A model generated the notes under the pieces. The model did not search any database. It was not told the DNA's origin and saw only the letters and a list, made by a program, of their open reading frames with translations. The position numbers and the translations under genes are program-made. Shown piece by piece: positions 30,678-64,000 of a stretch of DNA of 64,000 nucleotides; positions within the stretch are counted from its first letter, which is position 1, and the number at the start of each line of letters is the position of its first letter. This stretch comes from a virus (taxonomy: Duplodnaviria > Caudoviricetes), in the IMG/VR virus record IMGVR_UViG_3300028800_000092, positions 1,703 through 65,702 of that record; one strand, written 5' to 3'.

Positions 30678-31387
30678 AACACCGCGACACTGTCATATAC
30701 AAATACCGCAAGTCCTTCGAGGACTATACACATAATACCGCCACCGTCCGGACCTACAGACTCTACTGTGCCTGCCTAGCGCGGTTCTTCGCGCTGTTCT
30801 GGTTCCGGGCAGAGCCGGACCACGTCACTAGTTTCGACGTGAAGGACTACATCATTCGCCGTCAGCGCCAAGGTCGAGCCAACAGTACCATTAACTATGA
30901 GCTCTCCGTGCTCAGATGCTTCTGGAACTGGTTAATGGAGCACGACGTGGCGAGCGCTAACCCGTTTGCTAGTGTCATACTTGACACAGTGCCTACAAAC
31001 CACACCCCTGTCACGGAGGATACATATAGAGCTATACTTGAATCCTGCGAGTTACCTGTAGAGCGGCTCCTCATTACCTTAATGGCCGCGACGCCATTGA
31101 ACGGGACCGAGCTGTCCGCTCTTGACTGGAGCGATATAGACCTACAGTCTAGCACTATATTAGTCCGAGACAAGTACATCCCCCTACGCCCGCAGGAGGT
31201 TACATTCCTCCGTGAATTCAAATCCTTCGGTCGCGTGTTCGCGGAGTATGCGAACAATCAACGTATGCTACTGGCCAAGTTCCGGCGCATTACGCAGCGC
31301 GCCGGATTCATAGGCGTAACCCAGAAGGCCCTCAAGGATGGTTACGTACGTATGTTATTCCGAGCGGGAGAGACCGTAACCGTCTAA
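30674..31387 (+). CDS. Tyrosine-recombinase-like protein, catalytic residues degenerate
   Basis: Core-binding domain (T...Y...L..F; STINYELSVLRCFWNWL...NP); TPLNGTELSALDWSDIDL lacks catalytic R; no HxxR or terminal Tyr. Confidence 0.75.
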   Translation: MKHRDTVIYKYRKSFEDYTHNTATVRTYRLYCACLARFFALFWFRAEPDHVTSFDVKDYIIRRQRQGRANSTINYELSVLRCFWNWLMEHDVASANPFASVILDTVPTNHTPVTEDTYRAILESCELPVERLLITLMAATPLNGTELSALDWSDIDLQSSTILVRDKYIPLRPQEVTFLREFKSFGRVFAEYANNQRMLLAKFRRITQRAGFIGVTQKALKDGYVRMLFRAGETVTV

Positions 31388-35442: not shown

Positions 35443-37920
35443 CTACTTACCATACTCTTCACATTCCCCCCAACTAGGCCCAACCTTGATGCCGATGGGG
35501 ATACTAAATCCCCCAAGCTGCGGCCACGCTTGCTCCATGACTGTCTTGACTGTATGAATCAAGTCGTCCTCGATCTCCGGAGGATATTCAAATAGCAAGC
35601 TATCGTGAACTTGAAGCAATAGTTCCGCCGGCCTCGGTAGTGGGATAACAACCTGGGCGACCCTCTGCGCAAGCTCCAGAGGCCACGCTATTCTCTCGTA
35701 CATCAGGGCTATCATAGCCCTGAAGATTATATCCGCGGCGGTTGACTGCGGCAGAAACGACAGACTCTCCGTGAAGTATGAGGATGTGTAGAACCACCGC
35801 TTCCGCCCAAAGGGGGTCGTTAATACACTGTCTCTCTTTGCGCGCTCGGCGCACGAGTTCTGCCAAGTGATCGTTGCTCGGATGGCGCTTTTCCATTTGT
35901 CGTGAAGTTCCTTAGTTTCCTTTAGATCAAGGTCATTGATAAGGGCGATTTTCTTTGAGCCCTCGCCGTAGTTCGTTCCGTGAACAATGCGCTTCGCTTT
36001 AATGTAAGGGGACTCGTTGTCACTAGATTTCTCTACTTCGTCGTAGGGGACTCCCATGAAGAGGCTAGCCGCATACTTATGCTCACTGAACTTAGGGTCT
36101 CGTACGAAACGTTCAAGACGCTCGTGATCTCCTGCAAAGTAGGCGGTAAGTCGGTTTTCAATTTGAGAGTAATCGACTTCAAGTATTTTCCATCCGGCAT
36201 GGGACGGCACGTAAATGAATCGAGTTGACTCTGGGATATTCTGGAGATTAGGGTCCGAAGAACTGAGTCGTCCAGATGCGGTCCCGTGTACATTAAAGTG
36301 AGGATACATTCGTTTAACATGTACCATCTCCTCTTTGCAAAATGTGGTTACAAGTTCATCCCACCGGTTGAGCTGCTTAAGTGCCAAGATGCCACGATTC
36401 TTGGAACGGCGGAACAACTTATCAAGCGCCACTTTACCTGTAGTGATCGCGTTGTCTTTCTTAACATCATACTGTACCTCAAGTCCAAGTTGCCACGGTT
36501 CATCTGTTCCATATAGGAACTTCTGTTTCTTTTGACTAGAGCGCCAAGGAACTACAGTTTCCTCAGCGGGCTTCATAATGAACTTGAGTGGCTTCCCCGT
36601 CTTAGGCGAAAGCGTTCCGGGAGGCGCAGGTTCGCGCTTGTTAACCGGAACGGTATGCGTTCGCATCTCAGGAGGCAGGTACTCCTCCTCTTTCGCCATT
36701 GACAGCTTGAGCTCGCCGCGAACCTTTTCGATATTCTTAGCGTCTACCGCGAAGCCCCGCTTGTGCATACTGAGACAGATACGGGCCAGCGGGACCTGAG
36801 TAAATTTATATAGTTCTTCCAGTTGGAATTGACGGACCAGTGGCAAAAGTTGCTTGAAACTCTGGAACGTAACGTCAACGTCGCGGGCACAGTAGACTTC
36901 CTCGCTCTCACCCTTCTTGAACTTCCAGCGACCCTTGCTAGTGAACTGGCTCCCAAGGAACTCTAGGTCATGAGGGAACGTCGGGAAACATAGATGCTGA
37001 AGCAGCATCGTGTCCCAGACCTGCGCCGCAGGGTTTACCTTAACTTCATTGTCCGCAAGAACTGGGATATCAAACTGGAGTACATTGTGCCCGATGACTG
37101 AAGTGGCATCTCGAAATATCCTCTTGAGCTCCGGGATGTAGGCTCCAGTAAACGGAACAACAAGTACGTGGTACGGCCGGTCAGATATACCGACCATCTT
37201 CACTTTCCCGGTCCAGCCCCAAGTCTCAATATCAAAACAGAACTCGGTGGCCTTGAAGTTCCGGACGGTCTCTAGTTCCGGGAACGGGTCATAGTATTCG
37301 GGCGGAGCGACTAACCCTTTACGTAAATCATTGACTACACAGGGTATTAGCTCTTGGTCCCTGGCGATGTAGGCCGGATGCAATGTAGGTATTGCAATAG
37401 ACTTTTCCCCGAGTTCAGGTACGCTAACGGGGCTTCCCCGCCATGCAAAGATACCTTCAGGTCTTTCCGCGACGAACTCAAGAGCTTTGTCCCCAATAAG
37501 ATCAATTCGAGTCCAAGGAAAGCTATGCAGGACCGGATGAACGTGGGCCTTGAGGCAGTGCTGGACACTCTTTAGTCCGTCCTCTTTTGAAATATATGCG
37601 CGGGCGTCCGGGTCTGTAGGGAAATCATTGTCCGGTGGACGACACTGAATAACGTTACAGAGGGATACGTCGTCCATTCGTGCGCCCGCTTTGCTATAAA
37701 AGGTCCTAAGCCAATTACCGGAACCGCCCACGAAGGGCTCTCCGAGTAAGCTCTCTGTTTCACCTGGTGCTTCCCCTATCCCGAGTCGCTTAGTCCCCCG
37801 CATCTTCGGGGGGACAAAGTTATTGTTCGGGAACTTATCGCGCATCGGGCAGCCCGAACACGCGGAGACCTCTCCTACTTTCTTAGGAGAGGAAATTGAA
37901 ACTGAAGGTTCCGTCGGCAT
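35443..37920 (-). CDS. polA: Family A DNA polymerase with N-terminal family-4 uracil-DNA glycosylase domain and 3'-5' exonuclease
   Basis: UDG: CSGCP, GEAPG, CRPP, HPAY; Exo: FDIET, GHN..FD, YCARD; Pol: SGRLSSSDPNLQNIP, DYSQIE, KRIVHGTNYG, QVHDS. Confidence 0.93.
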   Translation of the reverse strand: MPTEPSVSISSPKKVGEVSACSGCPMRDKFPNNNFVPPKMRGTKRLGIGEAPGETESLLGEPFVGGSGNWLRTFYSKAGARMDDVSLCNVIQCRPPDNDFPTDPDARAYISKEDGLKSVQHCLKAHVHPVLHSFPWTRIDLIGDKALEFVAERPEGIFAWRGSPVSVPELGEKSIAIPTLHPAYIARDQELIPCVVNDLRKGLVAPPEYYDPFPELETVRNFKATEFCFDIETWGWTGKVKMVGISDRPYHVLVVPFTGAYIPELKRIFRDATSVIGHNVLQFDIPVLADNEVKVNPAAQVWDTMLLQHLCFPTFPHDLEFLGSQFTSKGRWKFKKGESEEVYCARDVDVTFQSFKQLLPLVRQFQLEELYKFTQVPLARICLSMHKRGFAVDAKNIEKVRGELKLSMAKEEEYLPPEMRTHTVPVNKREPAPPGTLSPKTGKPLKFIMKPAEETVVPWRSSQKKQKFLYGTDEPWQLGLEVQYDVKKDNAITTGKVALDKLFRRSKNRGILALKQLNRWDELVTTFCKEEMVHVKRMYPHFNVHGTASGRLSSSDPNLQNIPESTRFIYVPSHAGWKILEVDYSQIENRLTAYFAGDHERLERFVRDPKFSEHKYAASLFMGVPYDEVEKSSDNESPYIKAKRIVHGTNYGEGSKKIALINDLDLKETKELHDKWKSAIRATITWQNSCAERAKRDSVLTTPFGRKRWFYTSSYFTESLSFLPQSTAADIIFRAMIALMYERIAWPLELAQRVAQVVIPLPRPAELLLQVHDSLLFEYPPEIEDDLIHTVKTVMEQAWPQLGGFSIPIGIKVGPSWGECEEYGK

Positions 37921-41673: not shown

Positions 41674-42486
41674 TTACGTCGGGAGGTACGGGGTGACGGG
41701 TTCAAAGTATTTGTCTCTCACAATCGGCTCTAACTGAACTATCTGACATTCACCTACTACATGCGCCGCATAAGCTTCACATCTCCATCCCCCATTGTGA
41801 CAATTCTTCGTGAACCTGGGGTACATTCCCTGTAGGCTCTCTAGCTCTGTGATCTTGTCTGCGATGTATATGATATCCCGAATCGCATTAGCTTGCTGAG
41901 CCTTCGTGCGTTGTAGGCTATCGCGTCGAAAGGACGGGGGCAGGCGACCAGCAGGGGAACGCCTAGTAAGTACGTCAAGGGTAATACTATCGAAAGGTTC
42001 ACCGTAGATTTGCTCTGCGGCCCATTGATATAGGCCGACTTGGGCTTTAGCTGCCCAGACTTCAGGTAAGTTAGCTCTACTTGTGCGAGACTCGGTCTTA
42101 TGGTCCATCAGGCCTAGGCGGCCCGATTCGTTATCTCTATAGATAACGTCCATCTTTCCGATCAGGATGTGCGGGCTAGACGGGAGGGGCACCTCAAAGT
42201 ACCTCTCTACATCAACTACAGCAAACGGCTCTACAGGGTACTGCGCCTTGTAGGCTTCAAAGAGTTCTTGGGCTTCGGCTTCTACTAGAGGGTCACCCAG
42301 GGAGATATCTTCCCCGAGAACACCCGGTTCTCGTAAGGCGAAATGACCCTCTAGTAACTTGTGAATCCTTGTTCCAAACTCCAGCGCGCCCCCGGCACCC
42401 TTTCGAGTCCAGCCGTTGATGTAGCGTTCCTGATACAATGCAGGACAGCTAGTGAAGGCCTCCGCTGCTGAGTTATCTATCTTCAA
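41674..42486 (-). CDS. Cas4/RecB-like PD-(D/E)xK exonuclease
   Basis: SCP, FGTRIH..LE, VE, GKMD, DHKT, Q..LY, C....CE. Confidence 0.85.
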   Translation of the reverse strand: MKIDNSAAEAFTSCPALYQERYINGWTRKGAGGALEFGTRIHKLLEGHFALREPGVLGEDISLGDPLVEAEAQELFEAYKAQYPVEPFAVVDVERYFEVPLPSSPHILIGKMDVIYRDNESGRLGLMDHKTESRTSRANLPEVWAAKAQVGLYQWAAEQIYGEPFDSITLDVLTRRSPAGRLPPSFRRDSLQRTKAQQANAIRDIIYIADKITELESLQGMYPRFTKNCHNGGWRCEAYAAHVVGECQIVQLEPIVRDKYFEPVTPYLPT

Positions 42487-43782: not shown

Positions 43783-43853
43783 GGGCCTTGCTTCGCTATA
43801 GCCTGGTTACGGGTGGCCCATAGGAAACAGAAGAAGTTACACAACGTGTGCAT

Positions 43854-44021
43854 TTAAGGGTTCCAATCTCCGCGTTCGATTTTATCAAGGGCATGACCAA
43901 CAAGTAACACGAAACCCCCGACCATAAAGAACATCCCTGCGGCCGCGATCTTGTTCCCATACGCGGCGTAATTGAACAACCAGCCCGCAACGCCTGCGAT
44001 TCCGGCAAAGACCCATTTCAT
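43854..44021 (-). CDS. 55-aa two-TM membrane peptide (not in ORF track)
   Basis: Hand translation MKWVFAGIAGVAGWLFNYAAYGNKIAAAGMFFMVGGFVLLVGHALDKIERGDWNP; AAGGAG upstream. Confidence 0.55.
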   Translation of the reverse strand: MKWVFAGIAGVAGWLFNYAAYGNKIAAAGMFFMVGGFVLLVGHALDKIERGDWNP

Positions 44022-44022
44022 G

Positions 44023-44177
44023 GTGTCACAATTCTCCTTGTAAGTTATTGATTCTTGGTGTCATGACTTTTCACCAATATGTACAGGGTGGGGGGGGGGG
44101 GAGTGGGTGTCTTACACATATACAGCGTGACAAAGGTGACACCTGTTTTCATGGAGTTACGGGCGAAATTGTGACAC
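44023..44177. repeat. Inverted-arm element with TGTCA boxes, IHF-like site and central G-tract (origin-like)
   Basis: GTGTCACAATT 44023-33 / AATTGTGACAC 44167-77; G12 at 44090-44101; related arm at 63916-64000. Confidence 0.7.
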
Positions 44178-44430
44178 GGCCCTTTAACCGCCGTAGTCCA
44201 GCGTCCGGCCACCCCGAAAATATGCCTCTTGGGCTTCGCAGATTCCGTTGTAGATAAGTTCGTAAAGCTCGTCAACAGAGAGGTCCACGCTGTAAAAAAC
44301 CCCCACGGCATCCGTAGCGATACGCCGCGCAATAGTATCTGCGGAACTACTCACGCCCTCACCGCCCCCAGGTGCGCATCGGGCACGGTAGGCTTCGGAC
44401 GCACCACTGGCGCACAATCACACGGCGTCT

Positions 44431-44884: not shown

Positions 44885-45703
44885 TCACATCAACACCTTC
44901 CACGCTTCACGAAAGTCTACATCAACCGGAAACTGAACGCTCTTGACACCTACACCTAGAACCCGCTCCGAAACCCGCTTCGCATTAACGTCGTCCCCGA
45001 AGTACTCGAATATACGGCGGAGACGCATGTAGCCTGGCCGGAGACCAAGGGCATCAAGGGCCGCTTGTGGGTCAACAGCGCAGAGCTTGGCACCTGTGAG
45101 GCATAGGAACGTAGTCTTGGGATGAAAGAGCCAAGAGGCCATTGTACGATACTCAGTACGAAAAGGGGGCTGCGGTAGGTAGCCCCCTGCTCCTGGTACA
45201 CGTACATCTCCAAACCTCCCATACCCGTGCATCTCGCCCCGACGGTGCTCAGACTCTTCGCGGGGGAGAATATCCAGCGTCTCTAGACACTTAGTGAACT
45301 TGTCAAGCGCCTTGACACGGAGGTTATGTTGCGTGGAAAACACACGCATGTCATCGTGTTCATAGGGCGTCAAGTCCAGATGCACATGCCCCCCGATGGG
45401 CATTTGGCGGTACATGCGATTTGGGTTAATTAACGCTCGTGCTTGCCATTTAGGGAGAGCTCCCGCTCGTAGCTTTCCGATACCCTCCGCTTGAAGCGGC
45501 TCCGAGAGAATAATGCGCTTGAGTCGTAATGTCAACGTCCGGGTGTCCTTACTCGGCTCCGGGTGCAGCTCAGCCACATCCCCTCCGTGGTCAATGCCTA
45601 TAGGGCCATCGTGGTCCATTGGCAAGACCAGTAGCGCTCCCGCCTTATCGTAGGCCACGAACTCCGGGTCACAACCGACTAGAAATTTATTTAACAGCGC
45701 CAA
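44885..45703 (-). CDS. phiEco32-like COOH-NH2 ligase type 2, paralog 1
   Basis: GCDPEF, GID, ELHPEP, GGHVHL, YGRFGDVR, EYRT. Confidence 0.85.
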   Translation of the reverse strand: MALLNKFLVGCDPEFVAYDKAGALLVLPMDHDGPIGIDHGGDVAELHPEPSKDTRTLTLRLKRIILSEPLQAEGIGKLRAGALPKWQARALINPNRMYRQMPIGGHVHLDLTPYEHDDMRVFSTQHNLRVKALDKFTKCLETLDILPREESEHRRGEMHGYGRFGDVRVPGAGGYLPQPPFRTEYRTMASWLFHPKTTFLCLTGAKLCAVDPQAALDALGLRPGYMRLRRIFEYFGDDVNAKRVSERVLGVGVKSVQFPVDVDFREAWKVLM

Positions 45704-48409: not shown

Positions 48410-48595
48410 TCAGTGTAGCTTTACCCACTGTTGCGCACGTTTCCAAACGCACGTTCGGTCATATACAATGGTGTCCGGCTCATCGCTCCCTTTCCCACAA
48501 CATTCACAGTGGTATTCGTACCCAAGAGCAAAGTCGTTGTGACTAATGGGGTGACAAACAGCTAGATCAGAAACTATGTTTGCTGCTTCGTTCAT
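48410..48595 (-). CDS. Small Cys-containing protein
   Basis: Overlap-coupled to amidotransferase stop. Confidence 0.4.
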   Translation of the reverse strand: MNEAANIVSDLAVCHPISHNDFALGYEYHCECCGKGSDEPDTIVYDRTCVWKRAQQWVKLH

Positions 48596-49590
48596 GCCCG
48601 TGCTTCCACGTGGCTAGTTTTAATGATTCCCTCTGGTTGAACTCCGAGCGGCTCTCCACAATGTGGACACTCCAGTTCATAAGTCTCGAACTCTTTCATG
48701 GCATCGGGGATACGAACTGCCCGCTTGCACTTAGAGTTCAGGCAGAGCAGATGCTCAGGTAGTGCCTCCGTCTTCCACTTCTCACGGCCACGGCGGTAAA
48801 TGTTATGCTGGTCATATATCGGCGCAGTGAAATGTGTATTGAACTCTAGGGCCTCATGCCACTCAAGCCCATTGTCTCCAATGATATGCGCCGAGTGATT
48901 CGTCATGGTACTGAAGCCGACGTTCGGGATGTTCGGTTGGAACAGCATCTCATGCCATTTATACACAGGCCGTAGCGTTTGATGCAGGAACTGTTTCGTA
49001 CTCGCGAAGCAGAACAGGTCAAGTTCTGGCACGGAGGCCCAGACCATAGGGTTCCCAGACCGGGCGAGTAGCAACTTACCGGGCTGCTCGACAGACAGAG
49101 CGGCGATGGCCCCGGAGCCCTTTAGCTTCCGAAGTTGCGCAATACCGTCCTTGGAGAGGGTACTGTCGTCAAGGAGCGCACGGATGATATCTGAATCCAC
49201 GGCCCCTTCACGTTCCAGTTTCAGTTCCCGGAACAGGATATAGTCGTTTTCGATCTTCCCATTGTGTACAACTACAGTTTTCCCCGTGAACAACGGATGG
49301 TTGTTACGGTTGTCCTCCGGGTCGCCTTGGGTAGCAGCTCGGGCATGGAGTAGCACTGTCTGCGCCTGCTCCAAGTGGTCCGCCAGGAACTCATCGAAGC
49401 GCTTTTGAATGACAAGCTGCCACGCAGGCATGGGCTCTTTCATTACATATATTTCCCCGTTCGGGTACTGGAGAGCTATGCCGGCTGCGTTAGTACCACG
49501 CTTCTGAAGCCCACAGAGCATGGTCTTTACATGAGTTGGAGTGATCGGAGGGGCCTCTCCGAAACGTCGAAAACCACCGATGCCACACAT
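48592..49590 (-). CDS. Class II (Ntn) glutamine amidotransferase with C-terminal Zn ribbon
   Basis: MCGIGG, RG..AAG, HARAATQG, NNHP, HNG.I.N, VDS; C-terminal C....C / CPHC. Confidence 0.9.
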   Translation of the reverse strand: MCGIGGFRRFGEAPPITPTHVKTMLCGLQKRGTNAAGIALQYPNGEIYVMKEPMPAWQLVIQKRFDEFLADHLEQAQTVLLHARAATQGDPEDNRNNHPLFTGKTVVVHNGKIENDYILFRELKLEREGAVDSDIIRALLDDSTLSKDGIAQLRKLKGSGAIAALSVEQPGKLLLARSGNPMVWASVPELDLFCFASTKQFLHQTLRPVYKWHEMLFQPNIPNVGFSTMTNHSAHIIGDNGLEWHEALEFNTHFTAPIYDQHNIYRRGREKWKTEALPEHLLCLNSKCKRAVRIPDAMKEFETYELECPHCGEPLGVQPEGIIKTSHVEARA

Positions 49591-49741: not shown

Positions 49742-49933
49742 TCATATTTGCCACCAACGCTTTCTGAGCGGGACCTTGACTACAGCCTTAGATTTCGCTT
49801 GCATGGCCTTTCCGTATCCGTCCGTGAACTCTATTACCGTTGAAATGGTAACCTTTGTACCGGGCTTTACCGATACGTCCGCCATGATTTCATTATGTAA
49901 AGCGGCCGAACCCAATACTTCATTAAGTGTCAC
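49742..49933 (-). CDS. Hypothetical protein
   Basis: Overlap-coupled to ligase 2. Confidence 0.45.
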   Translation of the reverse strand: MTLNEVLGSAALHNEIMADVSVKPGTKVTISTVIEFTDGYGKAMQAKSKAVVKVPLRKRWWQI

Positions 49934-51444
49934 GCAAAAATCTCCTCTCGACCTACATACGTATGCTTACACGCTACGGCCTCTTGCTTCATCTTCCCGA
50001 GCGCCGCTTGCCACTCTTTGTACGACTCCAGTTTCACGTCCTTGATCTTCCAGACCGGGAACATGCCACTACCGATCATTAACTCTATGACCTGTTTATG
50101 GTTTCCCTGATTGTTAACCGCAATCCCGTTCCAATCCCCGCCTACATATATAGAGTCCTTCGGGACCCGCTCGCGCCAATCTTGCGGCAGGAGATTCGCC
50201 CACTGACGACCTATGGCTATTAGATACGGGTCCTCTAAATGCTTCCCTGTTACATGAAACCCGCCACCATACGTGCACAGGTCACAGACGATTTCACCTA
50301 TGCCCTTGATACCACGGGTCTCTACAGTGTCAAGTAAAGATACATAGCCCTTCGGGAGTTCCGTAGGTGTCCAAGTAGCGGGGCGAAGCGCACCTACAGC
50401 TAAAGGTGCTCCGTGAGCCAAGTGCTCCCATAGCTCCGTTAACGTATCTTTATGGCCAGTAATGGCCCCCGGAACCACTGTAACCTGTGGTGCGTGCGGC
50501 CGCTTCCCGTCCATGCCCCATCGAGGCCGAAAGTCGCCCCCTATATGCTTCGGCATCCCTAGGCGTTGAAGGGCACCATATGCCAGCAAGGCATCATCGT
50601 CTAACCCTCGGTAATACCTGAGTAGGTTAGTAACATGGGTGCAACCTTCAACGCCACGAGCATGGTAGAATAACTCCGGGTCATACACCGCGATCTTAGA
50701 CAGAACTAGGTGTAAATACGCTATCCACGGGCTATCCAACCAACTTGGGAACGTGCGATATTCGTAACCGTAGGGTTGGGGACGAACGTCCCCAGGGCGA
50801 CCGTACCTTTGATTATGGGCATCTCCAGCCCTGCGCATGTCCATTTCATGGGCCGGGTACATACCGCTCTTTTCAAGGGATTCCGCTAAGCTATCAAGGC
50901 CCTTGACTTCATTGTTGTACATGACCTTGTTCCGACGGCCTAGGTGAACATGACCGCCAAGGCCATCTTCTTGCAAGTACGGCCCGCAGACCCAATTATA
51001 TGCGTTTGTCTCTGGGACTGTAGCCGACATCCAGCGGAACGTGTCAAGGATACTGGCCAAGACGGCGAGAGAGTTCTTGTTCGGAGCGGGGCGAATCTCT
51101 ACGAGTCGTCCATTGTTGTCGGCTCCATAGGCACGCCCAGCCTTCATTTTGAAGAGGTTCGCGTCTATACGGCGACCGTTCAGAAGCTCTGTGAATATGA
51201 ACTCCGGGTCCGCGCCAAGCATAAAGTGGTTGATGAGTCGGGGGATAGCCCGGTATTCCTGTAACTTAGGCTCTCGGTAGAACCGCCCCAGCCAAGAGCG
51301 AACTTCACTGTCTGTGACTTGCCAACCGAGGGGGTACAGTTTCTGTAGGTCTCGAAAGTCCTTGATTCCATTGAGAACGATGTCCCGGTAGAACCCGCGC
51401 TTGCGTTCTGAGTTCACAGTACCAATGCCTCCGCCTCGACCCAT
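49930..51444 (-). CDS. phiEco32-like COOH-NH2 ligase type 2, paralog 2 (extended termini)
   Basis: LGADPEF, GAD, EIRPAP, LGGHVHLG, YGRPGDVR.QPYGYEYRTFPSWL. Confidence 0.88.
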   Translation of the reverse strand: MGRGGGIGTVNSERKRGFYRDIVLNGIKDFRDLQKLYPLGWQVTDSEVRSWLGRFYREPKLQEYRAIPRLINHFMLGADPEFIFTELLNGRRIDANLFKMKAGRAYGADNNGRLVEIRPAPNKNSLAVLASILDTFRWMSATVPETNAYNWVCGPYLQEDGLGGHVHLGRRNKVMYNNEVKGLDSLAESLEKSGMYPAHEMDMRRAGDAHNQRYGRPGDVRPQPYGYEYRTFPSWLDSPWIAYLHLVLSKIAVYDPELFYHARGVEGCTHVTNLLRYYRGLDDDALLAYGALQRLGMPKHIGGDFRPRWGMDGKRPHAPQVTVVPGAITGHKDTLTELWEHLAHGAPLAVGALRPATWTPTELPKGYVSLLDTVETRGIKGIGEIVCDLCTYGGGFHVTGKHLEDPYLIAIGRQWANLLPQDWRERVPKDSIYVGGDWNGIAVNNQGNHKQVIELMIGSGMFPVWKIKDVKLESYKEWQAALGKMKQEAVACKHTYVGREEIFA

Positions 51445-53093: not shown

Positions 53094-53420
53094 TTACGTG
53101 GCCTTCTTGACGCCGACGCCCCAGAGGGTGATTTCATATTCGGCCTCGCCCTTGGTCTTGTCAGCGTGCTGTCCGGGCATGGTGCAGAGTGGCACAAAGC
53201 CCCGCTGCTCCAGTTCCCTGATAGCCAATGTTTGGTACGGCACAGTTGTGGCAAAGACAGGCAGCTTCTCTTTCGTGAACGCACTCGTACGTTCCTTAAT
53301 CGAAAGCGCCATGTCATATGCCTGTTTGCGTGTTACCCCGTCCTTGGCGACGGCGGGCTCAGACAAATTCCCCATAATGAGCGCGCCACAACAGAACGGG
53401 AAGAGGGACATATTTGGCAT
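53094..53420 (-). CDS. FPxCC-motif protein, paralog A (GNAT-like by inference)
   Basis: FPFCCG...ATT...Q..A...L...GF..L......H.......ITLWG. Confidence 0.6.
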   Translation of the reverse strand: MPNMSLFPFCCGALIMGNLSEPAVAKDGVTRKQAYDMALSIKERTSAFTKEKLPVFATTVPYQTLAIRELEQRGFVPLCTMPGQHADKTKGEAEYEITLWGVGVKKAT

Positions 53421-53733
53421 ACGTGTACTCCTTCCTTGAATTGATTTCTCTCCAGTTTTAAGCGACCACGTTGTCACTTGCGCTGAGCGCACAGTTCGTA
53501 CCTGTACCAGTAACCGAAGGTATCTCTCCTCCGCGATTCCGGTTTCTAGCTCTGCCCTCGTAGGCTATGCGAGAACTTTCAATTACACTTGGTTGAGTGT
53601 GCTAGAGTTTTCTGGAGAGAATTGCATAGGAGACACCCAGAGCAGTTGAATCCAAACACGGCGAGTTTTGCCGCTTGCTGCGATCCTTAGGGTGTCTCCC
53701 GATAATATAGACCATCGCTGGAACCCGACTTCA

Positions 53734-53805
53734 AGCACGATGACGGATTTGAACCGCCGACCTTTACCCTAACGAGTAATGCTCTGCCATCTGAGCTAAT
53801 CTGCC
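53734..53805 (-). tRNA. Degenerate tRNA (6-nt anticodon loop, bulged acceptor stem, no CCA)
   Basis: TAGCTCAGATGGCAGAGC D arm and GGCGG-TTCAAAT-CCGTC T arm intact; isotype not assignable. Confidence 0.7.
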
Positions 53806-53959
53806 GTCCATCAGTTATGCCTTCAATGAATTCCCGATACTCTAGGAACTCTCCAGCGTTCCAGCAATGGCCCTCGTGGCCTACCTTCTCCGAATGGATG
53901 CATGTACTTGGATAAGAAATACAGTCTTCCGTATACGGTACTCGGCTTGGCCTTGAGCT

Positions 53960-54190
53960 TTACGAATCGAACTTAACTTCGCAGGTCAGCCTGTTTTCGA
54001 CTACAATTTCGCCGACTTTCTTTACGAGTACGTAAGTGCGCTCGAAGTCGTCCCCCTGATCCCGATAGTCGTCCGTAGCCGCTTGTTTGGCCCTCTCCAA
54101 GGTGGTGCGCTCACCGTTTCCGACAAGTTCGTCGTTGCTCTCGTCAATCACGTAAAACGGCCCTGTTACTGTTGTCTTTGCTATTGCCAT
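53960..54190 (-). CDS. Small hypothetical protein
   Basis: Purine-rich RBS; TTLERAK..A...YVLVKKV. Confidence 0.65.
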   Translation of the reverse strand: MAIAKTTVTGPFYVIDESNDELVGNGERTTLERAKQAATDDYRDQGDDFERTYVLVKKVGEIVVENRLTCEVKFDS

Positions 54191-55203: not shown

Positions 55204-55685
55204 TTTTCACGTTTCTCTCCTAATCTTGATACGTCCCCCGGAATCCAACGCCCTTCTTCATAACTCCAGTGCCCTTGCGGGCCTCTCTGGGGGTACTCTT
55301 GAAATGTTGTCCAAGCCTCGTCATCCCAACCCTTACGTGCAGTTACGTTCTTCGCCTTGGAACCAACCTTCCGTGCTTCCTGCGTCTGCGCTATGAAGCA
55401 CTCTTTCCTCCCGCAATAGCGTACATTGCTCTTGAAGAAGAACGCTGGACGGCCGCAATGTGTACACGCGGCCAGTACTACGAAGCCCCGCCCCAAGCAC
55501 AACGGACAACAGTCATCTTGTCCCTGTAGCTTCGAATTCACGCGCCCACCGTCTACACATATCGGACAAGGGGCGGTTTCGGGGGCATATATTGCTATAA
55601 CCCCCTTCTTGCCCTTCTTTGTCTTGCTCTTTATGAACCGTAGAGCACGAATCCGAGCACTCCGAAGCACGTATGGCTCTCGCAT
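55200..55685 (-). CDS. Zn-finger protein with DnaJ-like CxxCxGxG repeats
   Basis: CPICVDGG, CPLCLGRG, CTHC; TAATG-coupled to ligase 3. Confidence 0.6.
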   Translation of the reverse strand: MREPYVLRSARIRALRFIKSKTKKGKKGVIAIYAPETAPCPICVDGGRVNSKLQGQDDCCPLCLGRGFVVLAACTHCGRPAFFFKSNVRYCGRKECFIAQTQEARKVGSKAKNVTARKGWDDEAWTTFQEYPQRGPQGHWSYEEGRWIPGDVSRLGEKREN

Positions 55686-57001
55686 TACGGTTTCATGACC
55701 TCCGTGCCACGAACCATCCAATGGTTACTACCGTTCACAGGCTGTAAGTTTTTCTCCGGGTCTGCGAAGGCCTTGGCCGGGATACCCTCGAACATGGCTT
55801 GTAGGGCAGCCTGTCGAGCGATCTTGGACCTCTCAGATGTTCCATTGTTCGGGAACATCCAAAGTAACAGCCCCTCAATCATCGGCATATTGCGCCCAAG
55901 TATACTGTGCGCCATGCTCACGTTCGCCGTGTTGATGGTCTCTTCGACTTCCATGTCTGTGGTTAGCCACGAGTCAAAGTACCCCTGCAAGTACATGTAC
56001 AGACTCGCTCTCGCGAGGTCTAGTGTCAAGTATCCCACAGTCGAATTCAAACACCACTGATTCGAGAGCACACGATACTCAAGGCCGTAGCTAGTCTTTC
56101 TATATTCCCCGGCCTTCCCATACAGTGTCCTGCGCTTTGGGTTGTCCACATGCTGAAACATGCCCACGGACATGATACCGAGTATCGCGTCCACGGCCTT
56201 CACTATGTCTGCCGCGTTGCTGTCTGTGATTCCCTTGTGCCCGAAGTGAATATGGCCCCCTGCGGGCCTCATGTTAATGGAATACGGGTCAATGACCGGC
56301 TCCCATTCATGTCCGTAGGCGTTCAGGCTCGGCTTGCAACCGAACTGTACGTATTCCTGCGGGTACTTGATAAGCTGCTCGGTCGGCACTTCAATGACCG
56401 ATCTACTTGAAAGCCGTGCCTGTGGCCGGAGCTTTCGGACTTCACGGAGCGTTCCTAGAAGCGCCTGCTCGATGCCATAGACTACGACATCCAAGCACAT
56501 AGCTGTGTCTTTGAACCGCGCTTCTGCCTGTAGGCCGTCCCAGTACGCAGACGAATGTAGCATCGCAGGAGTCAAGCTCCCGTCCCGAAGGGTAGCCGAC
56601 AGCTCTATAGGTGCTTCCTTACTCGGTAGCACAGTCCATGCGGGAATTATAGTCCCGCCCTCTTCAAGGAAGAACTCGGGGTCAGAGCCAATCGTTACAC
56701 TTTCGTGTTGAAGGAGCAACGCCAGATTCTTAGTCCGTAGCGTATCCTTCTCTGTCTCTGTAAGCTCCCGAACATCCCGCTCATTGGTATCGAGTGGCTT
56801 ATGGTACCGTGACCCTTTGCTGGAAGGGGGCACAATGCCCCCGCCAGTCCAAGGAAACACCAGCCCATTCGGTATCTGAACGAACTGCCGGTAATCTGTC
56901 CCACGGGGGCTCGCGTGACACTGCGTCGCGCACATGCCCATGTAGTCCAGGTGCTCTACGAGCGGTTCGCTCGCTTCCTTGAGCATCCAAGCTCTGTTCA
57001 C
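55685..57001 (-). CDS. phiEco32-like COOH-NH2 ligase type 2, paralog 3
   Basis: IGSDPEFF, DGLQAE, FGC.PS.NAY, R.AGGHIHFG, RR.LYGKAGEYR...YG.EYRVLSN.W. Confidence 0.9.
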   Translation of the reverse strand: MNRAWMLKEASEPLVEHLDYMGMCATQCHASPRGTDYRQFVQIPNGLVFPWTGGGIVPPSSKGSRYHKPLDTNERDVRELTETEKDTLRTKNLALLLQHESVTIGSDPEFFLEEGGTIIPAWTVLPSKEAPIELSATLRDGSLTPAMLHSSAYWDGLQAEARFKDTAMCLDVVVYGIEQALLGTLREVRKLRPQARLSSRSVIEVPTEQLIKYPQEYVQFGCKPSLNAYGHEWEPVIDPYSINMRPAGGHIHFGHKGITDSNAADIVKAVDAILGIMSVGMFQHVDNPKRRTLYGKAGEYRKTSYGLEYRVLSNQWCLNSTVGYLTLDLARASLYMYLQGYFDSWLTTDMEVEETINTANVSMAHSILGRNMPMIEGLLLWMFPNNGTSERSKIARQAALQAMFEGIPAKAFADPEKNLQPVNGSNHWMVRGTEVMKP

Positions 57002-62147: not shown

Positions 62148-62468
62148 GGTATAGGTCTCCTGTTACCTATAGGGCCTGTGTCCATTTTCGGACACTCTCG
62201 AAACCCGCAAAACGCGGGTTCAACCTGTGCGCCAGATGCGCCGCAATTGCGCCACGATTCGATTCTAGCGCGTTTCGACTCGCCCGACGTGGTTTGGCGC
62301 GTCGTCGTGTTTTCCACAGGCCAAAATCGCCTCCGTAGCACGATTTCGATAGGCATGGCACAAAGGTGGTGTTTTGTAGGCCAAAAAACAGGGAGCACGC
62401 GGTTAACGTGCTCCCATTTCGTCGAAGTAAATCAGTAGCAGGGTGGATTGCTCCACCCTGCTAGTGTC

Positions 62469-62897
62469 TTACTTCAATAGCGCCAAAAGCGCCTTGACAA
62501 CCGCGGCCTTATCGTCACTCTGTGTCGCGTTACCCGGTGTCGCCGTCGGCATCTTCGTGCGGTTTGTCTTGCGGCTTAGCTTCACGCCGTCATCGTTGGC
62601 GTTAATGAACGCCCACAAGGGTTCCCAATTGTCCCGAAGTTTCTCCCATTGCTCAACGTACAGCGAGACAGGGAAACGTCCCAAGCCACTCAGCGAGATA
62701 CAGCCTTTCTCGCTGATACTGAAACCAACCGCGCCACTCTTCGGCTGCGCCTTTGACTGCGCCTCCAATTCAACCAACCGCGCCTGCAATTCGGCATACG
62801 TCGGCTGACCCGGTTTCAAGTCGGCAGAGACTGCAACCGTACCCGCGGCGGGGACAAGGGGGGACTTTGGGGCGTTGACTGTGCTATTCGTTTCCAT
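62469..62897 (-). CDS. Early protein with SEKG..S..GLGRFPVSLY.EQW motif
   Basis: AAGGA RBS; motif recalled from small bacterial/phage proteins; function not assigned. Confidence 0.65.
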   Translation of the reverse strand: METNSTVNAPKSPLVPAAGTVAVSADLKPGQPTYAELQARLVELEAQSKAQPKSGAVGFSISEKGCISLSGLGRFPVSLYVEQWEKLRDNWEPLWAFINANDDGVKLSRKTNRTKMPTATPGNATQSDDKAAVVKALLALLK

Positions 62898-63836
62898 GAT
62901 TAAATCCTTTCATTTGTGCCACTTAGCGACTGGCACGGTCGCAATTACGATACTCGCTTCCGAGTATCGGGAGTTAGTTGCTCCAATAACGGCACAGGCG
63001 AGTGTTTCCACACAAGGGGCAAGCCCCCTTTCCCTGTGCCGTTAATGCAACAGTCTAACTCGCAGTGTCGGATTTCGCCTAGTTGATCTTACCCCCGGAC
63101 TATCCCAGAGGTCGCTTCACTTGCGTCAGCTAGTCCGCATCCTGCACGTACCCCTAGCTCAAAGGGGTACTCCTCTCGTTCGCAGTAATCGTCTGGGAGG
63201 TTTCGGTCCCATTAACGGTGTTACCGTCTAGCAGCCTACCCGACTGTGAGCCATTTCCGGGTTCGTCGGGTTCCTGCGAACGTGTTGGCTGCCGTGACCA
63301 AGTGCAAGCGGCACGCCAAACGCAACTTGTTGAAAACAAACGACTTCACCTTCGTGGGGGTGCGTCAAAAATTCATACCACGAACGTGGCGAAATCGGGC
63401 CTAAGTGCCGCATAATCAGCGACTTGGCGCGCTTTACCCGCCCTGTAAAGTTTACCGTACCACCAAAGTGGGGTGCGCTGGGACACCGCCTATAGCCACG
63501 TATCTGGCAGGGTATGCCCATCAAGTACCAACTACGTGTCCTCCCAAGTCCTTCCCTGTCAATACCTTAGCGGCTATATCGTACCACGGTATAGTCACTC
63601 GTGCTGCGAGCTATAGCACTCCGAGCGCCTATATGCCTATAGCTAAGTCTATATTATTCATATACCTAAGGTTTCTACTACCGTCAATGGGTATGGGCAT
63701 GGTTCATGGACTCATCTCCCCGGACTCTACATGTAAATTACGAAATTCATGTAAACCCTTCATTTCATTGACACTAGTGCTCATGGCACTAGCTCTCCAA
63801 GCTATAGATATATAAGGACTTACAGGTAGACATTTA

Positions 63837-63915: not shown

Positions 63916-64000
63916 GTGTCATTTTTTCGCCTGTAAGTTATTGAAAAATGGATGTCACTTTGTCACTCTATATCCTGTACTATACAGGGGGGGGGGGGGG
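63916..64000. repeat. Second copy (one arm plus G-tract) of the 44023-44177 element, cut by the window edge
   Basis: GTGTCA...GTAAGTTATTGA...TGTCACTTTGTCAC...TACAGGGG. Confidence 0.7.

What the first reader, a model, noticed from the sequence alone, without database searches (positions are those of the whole stretch)
53712..53870. Non-decoding tRNA nested inside a larger stem-closed RNA
Seen: the degenerate tRNA (intact D and T arms, 6-nt anticodon loop, bulged acceptor) lies within a 13-bp helix CCATTGCTGGAAC/GTTCCAGCGATGG whose single U:G pair works only on the minus strand, together with a GAGTTCC/GGAATTC hairpin. Known: bacterial Y RNAs join a terminal stem to a tRNA-like domain, but no Ro protein gene is visible here. 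Inference: about 160-nt tRNA-elbow mimic rather than a decaying tRNA, perhaps a decoy for anticodon nucleases.
Basis: partly seen in the sequence, partly recalled or inferred. Interest (0 to 1): 0.7.

Follow-up and report, generated by a model that had tools for sequence, protein, structure and literature searches.

The report
Orphan tRNA-like RNA in phage
A soil-phage genome carries one tRNA-derived sequence that can no longer read codons and sits inside a long closing stem; it is real rather than an assembly error, but it has no relatives, so its function is inferred only.

Summary
On the minus strand, 53804-53734 is a tRNA homologue (Rfam RF00005, 37.7 bits against a cut-off of 29; ARAGORN calls nothing). 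The D arm, T arm and tertiary-core letters are canonical. The acceptor has one bulge and the anticodon arm has a 4- or 6-nt loop. A 16 bp + 3 bp helix (53873-53854 / 53727-53709) and an 8-bp hairpin enclose it. Only the minus strand folds well (z -4.2 against +0.3).

Contigs from three rhizosphere runs reproduce the sequence with no indels, so the defects are not assembly errors.

The window is a 65.7-kb phiEco32/SU10-like podophage with no close relatives: the best homologue of a neighbouring protein is about 40% identical. Distant syntenic phages have no tRNA at this site. A covariance model of the whole element matched nothing but itself. Pattern scans of viral, genome and metagenome collections gave 0 hits.

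There is no Ro60 gene and no Y-RNA motif.

Best reading (about 0.4): a tRNA-derived, non-decoding module kept as an RNA-processing or stability element in a polycistronic transcript. A neutrally decaying tRNA (about 0.3) and a tRNA-mimic decoy (about 0.12) stay open. There are no covariation or expression data. Interest is moderate to low.

The parts
53734..53804 (-). tRNA-like core. The acceptor has 6 bp plus a bulged G53738. The D arm is 4 bp with an 8-nt loop. The anticodon arm is 6 bp plus a GUUA loop, or 5 bp plus a 6-nt loop. The variable loop is 5 nt. The T arm is 5 bp with loop UUCAAAU. The discriminator is U and no CCA is encoded.
   Evidence: Rfam RF00005 37.7 bits with alignment. 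On its own it folds as a cloverleaf, -20.1 kcal/mol. ARAGORN calls nothing.
53858..53873 (-). 5' arm of the outer closing helix (16 nt).
   Evidence: Pair probabilities are 0.72-1.0.
53709..53724 (-). 3' arm of the outer closing helix (16 nt). The 3 G:U pairs form only on the minus strand.
53854..53856 (-). 3-bp extension of the closing helix, pairing with 53725-53727 after the bulged G53857.
   Evidence: pair probability about 0.81.
53828..53851 (-). 8-bp hairpin with an 8-nt loop, lying between the closing helix and the tRNA-like core.
   Evidence: pair probability 0.91-1.0.
53805..53827 (-). Leader or linker. In the minimum-energy fold it pairs with the 3' strands of the T and acceptor stems and the trailer, competing with the cloverleaf.
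53628..53700 (-). Second stem-closed structure directly downstream. It has an 11-bp closing helix and an inner terminator-like hairpin (53674-53658).
   Evidence: I7; z -4.15.
53870..53883 (-). 14-nt motif overlapping the 5' edge of the closing helix. It recurs with 2 mismatches at 53567-53554.
   Evidence: (D1).
53960..54190 (-). Upstream gene o76 (76 aa, no known family), co-oriented with the element.
   Evidence: Codon-model score +0.27, similar to held-out real genes.
53094..53492 (-). Downstream gene o132 (132 aa, no known family), co-oriented with the element.
   Evidence: Codon-model score +0.17.

Best explanation
This is a tRNA-derived sequence that no longer decodes. I propose it is kept as a structured module of the phage's minus-strand early or middle transcript.

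Shown:
- It descends from a class-I elongator tRNA.
- Its D arm, T arm, variable loop and tertiary-core letters are all canonical.
- Its acceptor has a bulge and its anticodon arm is a closed hairpin with a 4- or 6-nt loop, so it cannot read a codon.
- It lies in a 467-nt gap between two co-oriented likely genes.
- A 19-bp closing helix plus a side hairpin encloses it.

Inferred mechanism: the element is transcribed as part of a polycistronic RNA and acts as processing or stability punctuation. The intact acceptor/T-arm stack and elbow would attract the host's tRNA-processing enzymes, RNase P at the 5' side of G53804 and the 3' trimming enzymes. The roughly two-turn closing duplex would be either an RNase III-type target or a clamp that keeps the new ends base-paired and protected. 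The upstream and downstream messages would then be separated and stabilised without a tRNA being made.
For: - tRNA ancestry. Rfam gives 37.7 bits with only one defective pair in the alignment. The 71-nt core alone folds as a cloverleaf.
- Where the defects lie. Both changes hit only what decoding and charging need. Read directly from the sequence, these are all canonical: U8, A14, G15, G18, G19, A21, G46, C48, G53, U54, U55, C56, A58, C61, the D stem (4 bp) and the T stem (5 bp).
- The anticodon arm is remodelled rather than merely broken. It forms a stable 6-bp hairpin with pair probability 0.9-1.0.
- The closing helix is unusual. There are 6 such helices on the minus strand against 0.93 +/- 0.89 in shuffles. 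None of 214 phage tRNAs has a flank-to-flank helix of 16 bp. In 30 of the 32 tRNA hits in related phages the range is 7-13 bp. Its G:U pairs and the fold z-scores are strand-specific, -4.2 against +0.3, and the favoured strand is the coding strand of this half of the genome.
- The sequence is real. Three runs' contigs show 0 differences and 0 gaps.
- The flanking ORFs score as coding and the ORF overlapping the element does not.
- The closing helix is not an intrinsic terminator. It has no U tract, whereas the phage's clear terminators do.
- From recall, not from any call: RNase P cuts tRNA-like structures in phage and cellular non-tRNA transcripts, RNase III needs about two helical turns, and long flanking stems enclose rRNA and T7 mRNA processing sites.
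Against: - No conservation. The element is a singleton.
  - Pattern scans gave 0 hits.
  - The whole-element covariance model matched only itself over its full length, in 53 sources and in 47 related records.
  - None of the 11 loci searched with Rfam, which include the syntenic relatives, has a tRNA in the corresponding interval.
  - Selection on the structure therefore cannot be shown.
- No expression or end-mapping data.
- In the thermodynamic ensemble of the 165-nt RNA the acceptor and T stems have probability 0.002-0.005. The cloverleaf-containing fold is 3.8 kcal/mol above the minimum.
- The acceptor has 6 bp plus a bulge. [quoted passage not shown]
- This part of the genome has 11 stretches of at least 200 nt without an ORF of 60 aa or more, so non-coding space is not rare here.
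- Some equally long helices lie inside coding sequence (56320-56162, 42357-42282), so a long stem alone does not prove an RNA function.
Confidence: 0.4

Rival explanations
1. It is a neutrally decaying tRNA pseudogene. The phage once carried a working tRNA, two recent 1-nt deletions killed it, and the closing helix is unrelated or chance.
For: Phages of this loose group gain and lose tRNAs freely. Of 30 related records, 17 have tRNA matches of varied type and position, and 11 of 50 loci have ARAGORN tRNAs. The score is low for a tRNA, 37.7 bits against 45-69 for most hits in relatives. There is no conservation anywhere. The region is hypervariable, with small ORFs that have no homologues in any of 50 related loci. 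The same phage carries a second apparently degraded gene, a truncated integrase-like ORF.
Against: Apart from the two deletions there is not one disruptive substitution in 20 remaining pairs or in the tertiary-core letters (and the sequence). The closing helix is an outlier against shuffles. None of 214 phage tRNA flanks reaches 16 bp. The anticodon arm closes into a stable hairpin rather than an opened loop.
Confidence: 0.3
2. It is a tRNA-mimic non-coding RNA of about 165 nt. It would act as a decoy or sponge for a host tRNA-targeting defence nuclease or another tRNA-binding protein, with Y-RNA-like architecture (terminal stem plus tRNA-like domain).
For: The terminal stem plus tRNA-like domain resembles D. 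radiodurans Yrn1. As described in PMC4201824 (passages), Yrn1 has an anticodon-like arm with a 5-bp stem and a 6-nt loop. The elbow is intact (sequence). Phage tRNAs are reported to counter tRNA-cleaving defences (PMC10264068, PMC11464382 and PMC11555353; search listing and abstract starts only).
Against: There is no Ro60, RtcB, RNA ligase or CCA-enzyme gene in the phage. There is no GNCGAAN0-1G or GGUCCGA motif and no Rfam family other than tRNA. A nuclease that reads the anticodon loop would meet a 4- or 6-nt loop of unrelated shape. There is no own promoter and no clear end for a discrete RNA. The element is a singleton.
Confidence: 0.12
3. It is a remnant of an attP-type site or a captured host tRNA gene. 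Only the 3' half, which would rebuild a host tRNA after integration, stayed intact while the 5' half decayed.
For: Both defects lie in the 5' acceptor strand and the anticodon loop. Everything from the 3' anticodon stem to the 3' end is canonical. The phage has a tyrosine-recombinase-like ORF at 30674-31387 (PF13495 31.5 bits; PHROG 1 integrase E 5e-23).
Against: The recombinase-like ORF lies 22 kb away. It is only 237 aa and matches only positions 4-82 of the 172-position catalytic-domain profile. The 24-nt T-arm plus acceptor 3' segment has 0 exact matches in one genome for each of 185,579 species. A 21-nt version has 0 matches in IMG/VR. An attP needs no D arm and no closing helix. The genome layout is that of lytic phiEco32/SU10-like phages.
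Confidence: 0.08
4. It is a working tRNA with unusual decoding, for example frameshifting through a non-standard anticodon loop.
For: The Rfam score is above the gathering threshold. A 4-bp stem with an 8-nt loop can also be drawn from the sequence.
Against: ARAGORN rejects it. No register places U33 before and a purine 37 after a triplet with a 5-bp stem (sequence). The acceptor is bulged. The 6-bp hairpin is strongly favoured.
Confidence: 0.03
5. It is an assembly or sequencing artefact, with spurious indels in a normal tRNA gene.
For: The window ends in a run of 14 G, which may be a read artefact at the contig end.
Against: Logan contigs of X1 (53742-53929), X2 (53347-53766) and X3 (53616-53881, the whole element) agree with 0 differences and 0 gaps. 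One of these runs may be the source sample. Long ORFs such as the 2279-aa one are unbroken, so indel errors are rare in this contig.
Confidence: 0.02

Closest known systems
Phage-encoded tRNAs and pseudo-tRNAs
   Same: Clear tRNA ancestry (RF00005 above threshold), co-oriented with phage genes, in a phage group where tRNA content varies from genome to genome.
   Different: It cannot decode, because the anticodon loop has 4 or 6 nt and the acceptor is bulged. It is the only tRNA-like sequence in the genome. A 19-bp helix plus a hairpin encloses it, and 0 of 214 phage tRNAs examined have a flank helix that long.
Bacterial Y RNAs (YrlA; D. radiodurans Yrn1)
   Same: A terminal stem formed by the two ends plus a tRNA-like domain with D and T arms. 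Yrn1 is described with a 5-bp anticodon-like stem and a 6-nt loop (PMC4201824, passages).
   Different: There is no Ro60 gene within 4 kb or anywhere in the phage, no GNCGAAN0-1G motif and no Rfam match other than tRNA. In YrlA the RNA ends leave through the anticodon position, whereas here they leave through the acceptor.
RNase III processing stalks (rRNA operons, T7 early mRNA sites) - recalled, not tested
   Same: A duplex of about two helical turns formed by sequences that flank a structured RNA inside a polycistronic transcript.
   Different: No cleavage data. The host and its RNase III are unknown. No internal-loop signature was compared.
tRNA-like RNase P substrates outside tRNA genes (precursor of P1/P7 C4 RNA, T4 stable RNAs, mascRNA, MHV68 TMERs) - recalled, not tested
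   Same: A tRNA-shaped module that recruits tRNA-processing enzymes to cut or mature another RNA rather than to make a decoding tRNA.
   Different: Those cases have experimental cleavage data and conserved relatives. This one has neither, and its acceptor is 6 bp plus a bulge.

Membership tests
tRNA (Rfam RF00005) | Covariance-model score at or above the gathering score | tested here: met
   37.7 bits against 29, full model 1-71.
tRNA (functional, decoding) | 7-nt anticodon loop with U33 and a purine at 37 | tested here: not met
   The loop region is one letter short in the cmscan alignment. It folds as 6 bp plus a 4-nt loop. ARAGORN finds 0 genes.
tRNA (functional, decoding) | Continuous 7-bp acceptor stem | tested here: not met
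   6 pairs plus one bulged G on the 3' strand.
tRNA (functional, decoding) | Conserved D-loop, T-loop and tertiary-core nucleotides | tested here: met
   Read from the sequence against the Rfam consensus line.
Bacterial Y RNA (YrlA type) | Encoded within about 4 kb of a Ro60 (TROVE) gene on the same strand (criterion in PMC4201824) | tested here: not met
   0 TROVE matches at E<=1 in the whole 65.7-kb record. The control search found it in 2 of 14 genomes.
Bacterial Y RNA (YrlA type) | GNCGAAN0-1G motif near the 5' end (PMC4201824) | tested here: not met
   Absent from the 165-nt element and from the 467-nt intergenic region. GGUCCGA is absent too.
Bacterial Y RNA (YrlA type) | tRNA-like D and T stem-loops | tested here: met
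Bacterial Y RNA (any Rfam model) | Match to a curated covariance model | tested here: not met
   At E<=10 over 801 nt, only tRNA and one chance hit (14.2 bits) were found.
RNase III substrate | Double-stranded stem of about two helical turns (recalled criterion) | tested here: inconclusive
   16 + 3 bp with one bulge is predicted, with pair probability 0.7-1.0. Cleavage cannot be tested with these tools.
RNase P substrate (tRNA-like) | Acceptor/T-arm stack with a 7-bp acceptor stem (PMC4201824 passage) | tested here: inconclusive
   The T arm and elbow letters are intact. The acceptor is 6 bp plus a bulge. The cloverleaf fold is 3.8 kcal/mol above the minimum in context.
attP carrying a tRNA 3' segment | Exact identity of the 3' segment to a host tRNA gene | tested here: not met
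   0 exact matches for the 24-nt segment in genome contigs and for a 21-nt segment in viral contigs. The host may simply be unrepresented.
attP carrying a tRNA 3' segment | Adjacent, intact integrase gene | tested here: not met
   The only recombinase-like ORF lies 22 kb away. It is 237 aa, and the catalytic-domain match is below cut-off and covers profile positions 4-82 of 172.

The most novel reading that the evidence does not exclude
The 165-nt element is a free-standing phage non-coding RNA. It would be a Yrn1-like tRNA mimic whose terminal stem and intact elbow let it capture a host tRNA-binding factor during infection. The factor could be a tRNA-targeting defence nuclease, Ro60 or an exonuclease complex, or a tRNA-modifying or processing enzyme. 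That would make it a new class of RNA-based counter-defence, independent of decoding.
Probability: 0.1. Interest if true: 0.75.

Novelty: new variant of a known kind. Interest (0 to 1): 0.36.

Why it matters
Phage tRNAs have recently been reported to work as counter-defence tools rather than codon supplements (search listings and abstract starts only). If a tRNA-derived RNA keeps the elbow and loses decoding, phages would also be using the tRNA shape itself. The use could be as a processing signal in polycistronic RNA, or as a decoy.

As it stands, this is one orphan example in an uncultivated rhizosphere phage, with no conservation or expression data. Its present value is as a well-defined candidate for simple in-vitro tests, not as an established new class.

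Tried and rejected
**Close relatives**
- Single-protein scans of IMG/VR with the 438-aa ligase and the DNA polymerase found none.
- blastn of the 1-kb region against 50,697 phage records gave no match.
- tblastn of the ligase and the polymerase found only hits below 60% identity, 306 and 307 records.
- In the 5.8-billion-cluster protein search, listed non-self homologues are 31-43% identical.

**Exact-pattern scans for the element or its tRNA core**
- All gave 0 hits: viral, genome contigs and metagenome contigs.

**T-arm scan**
- The 83 extracted tRNAs are mostly Thr (26) and Met (24). In 22 ARAGORN made no call.
- None is close over the whole length, so the ancestral isotype stays undetermined.

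**Other searches**
- Rfam on two named 65-kb phages with the ligase (MW202615.1, OQ508958.1) found no tRNA-like hit.
- RNAduplex of the flanks was uninformative, because long interior loops inflate the energies. I replaced it with the longest contiguous helix.
- My first cloverleaf energy had the side hairpin mis-registered by one base. It was corrected.
- The sliding-window energy scan used a 20-nt grid that did not align with the element. The exact 165-nt window (-68.2) lies 2.4 sd below the window mean of -48.0 +/- 8.5, and I did not compute its rank.
- The 14-nt motif TAGGCCACGAGGGC has only one other copy with 2 or fewer mismatches in an intergenic region. It is not a genome-wide promoter-like motif.
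- The 648-nt gap at 43783-44430 is not unusually structured (z +2.0).

**Sequencing runs**
- No RNA holder was listed.
- Parts of the laid stretch lack contig cover in some runs.

Full report
**Context**

The window is bases 1703-65702 of a 65,702-base IMG/VR virus record that CheckV rates 100% complete. Its genes point to a phiEco32/SU10-like podophage layout:
- an SU10-type portal and a capsid protein on the plus strand;
- on the minus strand, a family-A DNA polymerase fused to a UDG domain, DUF3987, AAA_24 and a PD-(D/E)XK nuclease;
- an ORF with sigma-70 region 4;
- three phiEco32-type COOH-NH2 ligase paralogues and a class-II glutamine amidotransferase.

All genes from about 31.4 kb to the right end lie on the minus strand. 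Runs that hold the sequence are labelled rhizosphere metagenomes.

**The observation**

- Rfam places a full-length tRNA match on the minus strand at 53804-53734. It scores 37.7 bits against a gathering score of 29, with E 2.5e-4 for the window and 3.1e-6 for 801 nt.
- ARAGORN calls no tRNA in the whole window.
- In the cmscan alignment, the only defective pair is a deletion in the 5' acceptor strand, which leaves G53738 bulged. The anticodon loop region is one letter short.
- Read against the consensus, the D stem and loop, variable loop, T stem and loop, and the letters that build the tRNA core and elbow are all canonical.
- On its own the 71-nt core folds as a cloverleaf whose anticodon arm is 6 bp plus a GUUA tetraloop (-20.1 kcal/mol).

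On the RNA it extends to 16 bp (53873-53858 / 53724-53709, three G:U pairs), then 3 more pairs after a bulged G. The 8-bp hairpin 53851-53828 lies inside it.

The minus strand folds to -69.9 kcal/mol (z -4.21; 0 of 200 shuffles as good). The plus strand folds to -36.0 (z +0.32; 117 of 200).

**Is it more than chance?**

- Helices of at least 13 bp (at most one G:U, loop up to 200 nt) number 6 on the minus strand and 2 on the plus strand. Thirty dinucleotide shuffles of the minus strand give 0.93 +/- 0.89, maximum 3.
- At the looser threshold of 11 bp the excess is small: 26 against 14.3 +/- 3.5.
- ARAGORN found 278 tRNAs in all fetched loci. Of these, 214 were distinct and had full 100-nt flanks, and the rest were dropped as duplicates or for short flanks. 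Their longest contiguous flank-to-flank helix is 6-13 bp in 213 and 15 bp in one. Here it is 16 bp.
- For 30 of the 32 Rfam tRNA hits in related records, the range is 7-13 bp. The other two hits had no locus.

**Is the sequence real?**

- Logan contigs from three runs cover the element without any difference or gap. X1 covers 53742-53929, X2 covers 53347-53766 and X3 covers 53616-53881, which is the whole element.
- Across the 3.6 kb laid, only two single-letter differences and no indels were listed.
- One of these runs may be the sample the record was assembled from, so the runs are not fully independent.
- Long ORFs, including one of 2279 aa, are unbroken.
- The two 1-nt defects are therefore not assembly errors.

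**Surroundings**

- The element lies in a 467-nt gap (53959-53493) between two co-oriented ORFs with no known family, o76 and o132.
- Both flanking ORFs score as coding under a codon model trained on the phage's long genes (+0.27 and +0.17; held-out real genes score 0.21-0.33). The 51-aa ORF that overlaps the element does not (-0.03).
- The whole gap is more structured than its shuffles (z -3.49).
- Directly downstream is a second stem-closed structure, 53700-53628 (z -4.15), with an inner terminator-like hairpin.
- No sigma-70-like promoter was found just upstream of the element. The nearest on that strand is at 54368-54339.
- The closing helix has no U tract, whereas the phage's clear intrinsic terminators do, for example within 62300-62560.

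**A complication**

In the 165-nt context the minimum-energy fold (-68.2) is not the cloverleaf. The leader 53826-53805 pairs with the 3' strands of the T and acceptor stems. The best fold that contains the cloverleaf is -64.4. In the ensemble the acceptor and T stems have probabilities of 0.002-0.005, while the closing helix, the side hairpin and the anticodon hairpin are near 1. The energy model does not include tertiary contacts, so a gap of 3.8 kcal/mol does not exclude the cloverleaf. It still counts against it.

**Relatives**

None is close.
- Single-protein scans of IMG/VR with the neighbouring 438-aa ligase and with the polymerase confirmed no relative.
- The 1-kb region has no blastn match among 50,697 phage records.
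- The ligase's listed non-self homologues among 5.8 billion protein clusters are 31-43% identical.
- An alignment of 30 ligase homologues recovered 50 IMG/VR loci.
  - A conserved gene order appears in a subset: ligase, o173, a variable interval, o213, second ligase, amidotransferase.
  - The small ORFs around the element have no homologue in any of the 50 loci.
- Rfam on 11 loci, including the syntenic ones, found three ordinary tRNAs. All lie upstream of the ligase and none lies in the corresponding interval.
- A covariance model of the whole element was searched over 53 sources (688,834 bases) and over 47 whole related records. It matched only itself over its full length. Every other hit covered only the tRNA part, model positions 51-139.
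- Exact-pattern scans of viral, genome and metagenome collections gave no hit for the element's distinctive parts.
- The T arm alone is common in phage tRNAs of several isotypes, so the ancestral isotype cannot be named.

**Comparison with known kinds**

*Y RNAs.* I read passages of PMC4201824. YrlA-type RNAs were accepted there when they lay within about 4 kb of a Ro60 gene on the same strand. They share a GNCGAAN0-1G motif near the 5' end and have near-invariant D and T stem-loops. D. radiodurans Yrn1 is modelled with a 5-bp anticodon-like stem and a 6-nt loop.
- Here the D and T arms are present and the overall shape resembles Yrn1.
- The phage has no TROVE gene and no RtcB.
- The motif is absent, and no Rfam family other than tRNA matches.
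- It is therefore not a member of that family, though it could work in a similar way.

*attP remnant.* I considered this reading after finding a tyrosine-recombinase-like ORF at 30674-31387.
- In its favour, both defects lie 5' of the anticodon.
- Against it, the ORF is 22 kb away and only 237 aa. It matches only the first half of the catalytic-domain profile.
- The element's 3' segment matches no genome of 185,579 species.

**Verdict**

The element is a real, tRNA-derived, non-decoding sequence embedded in a strand-specific closing helix.
- My preferred reading (about 0.4) is that it serves as processing or stability punctuation in a polycistronic phage transcript. It would work through host tRNA-processing enzymes and possibly RNase III. 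The enzyme behaviour is recalled knowledge, not tested here.
- A recently inactivated tRNA gene with no remaining role (about 0.3) cannot be excluded, because there is no conservation or expression evidence.
- The finding is a new variant of a known kind, phage tRNA-derived elements, and is of moderate to low interest until a relative or an RNA experiment turns up.

Noticed in passing
window 30674-31387 (+): A 237-aa tyrosine-recombinase-like ORF sits at the end of the structural module (PF13495 31.5 bits; PHROG 1 integrase E 5e-23). The catalytic-domain match is below cut-off and covers only profile positions 4-82 of 172. It looks like a truncated or repurposed integrase in an otherwise lytic-type genome. 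The nearest phage hits are 24-33% identical.
   Followed up: partly
window 44885-45703, 49930-51444, 55685-57001 (-) and 48592-49590 (-): Three paralogous phiEco32-type COOH-NH2 ligases and a class-II glutamine amidotransferase are spread over 12 kb. The gene order is partly conserved in distant IMG/VR phages.
   Followed up: partly
window 61165-61081, 38821-38738 (-): Two other intergenic stem-closed structures lie on the coding strand. Each has a 13-bp closing helix around 58-59 nt with inner hairpins (z -5.1 and -3.9). They may be further processing or stability elements.
   Followed up: partly
window 42282-42357: A perfect inverted repeat of 13-15 bp, on both strands, encloses 46-48 nt inside the PD-(D/E)XK nuclease ORF.
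   Followed up: no
window 62300-62560 and 62900-63105 (-): These are the most stable local folds of the window (z -6.9 for 62300-62560). One is a long hairpin followed by a classic GC-rich stem with a U tract, an intrinsic terminator.
   Followed up: partly
window 44090-44101 and 63987-64000 (+): There are two G homopolymers, 12 and 14 letters long. The second is the last 14 bases of the record and may be a read artefact. The first lies in a 648-nt gap between genes.
   Followed up: no
window 53870-53883 and 53554-53567 (-): A 14-nt direct repeat (2 mismatches) occurs in the same intergenic region. One copy overlaps the 5' edge of the closing helix and the other lies upstream of a GGAGGAG stretch.
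   Followed up: partly
L059 (G023:C1:21417-21490) and L057 (G024:C1:35070-35141): Two tRNAs in distantly related phages are flanked by perfect 11-bp complementary stretches. In L059 they lie 32 nt upstream and 14 nt downstream of the tRNA. These are weaker echoes of a closing stem around a tRNA.
   Followed up: no
window 35443-37920 (-): The family-A DNA polymerase carries an N-terminal uracil-DNA-glycosylase-superfamily domain and a 3'-5' exonuclease domain in one 825-aa ORF.
   Followed up: no
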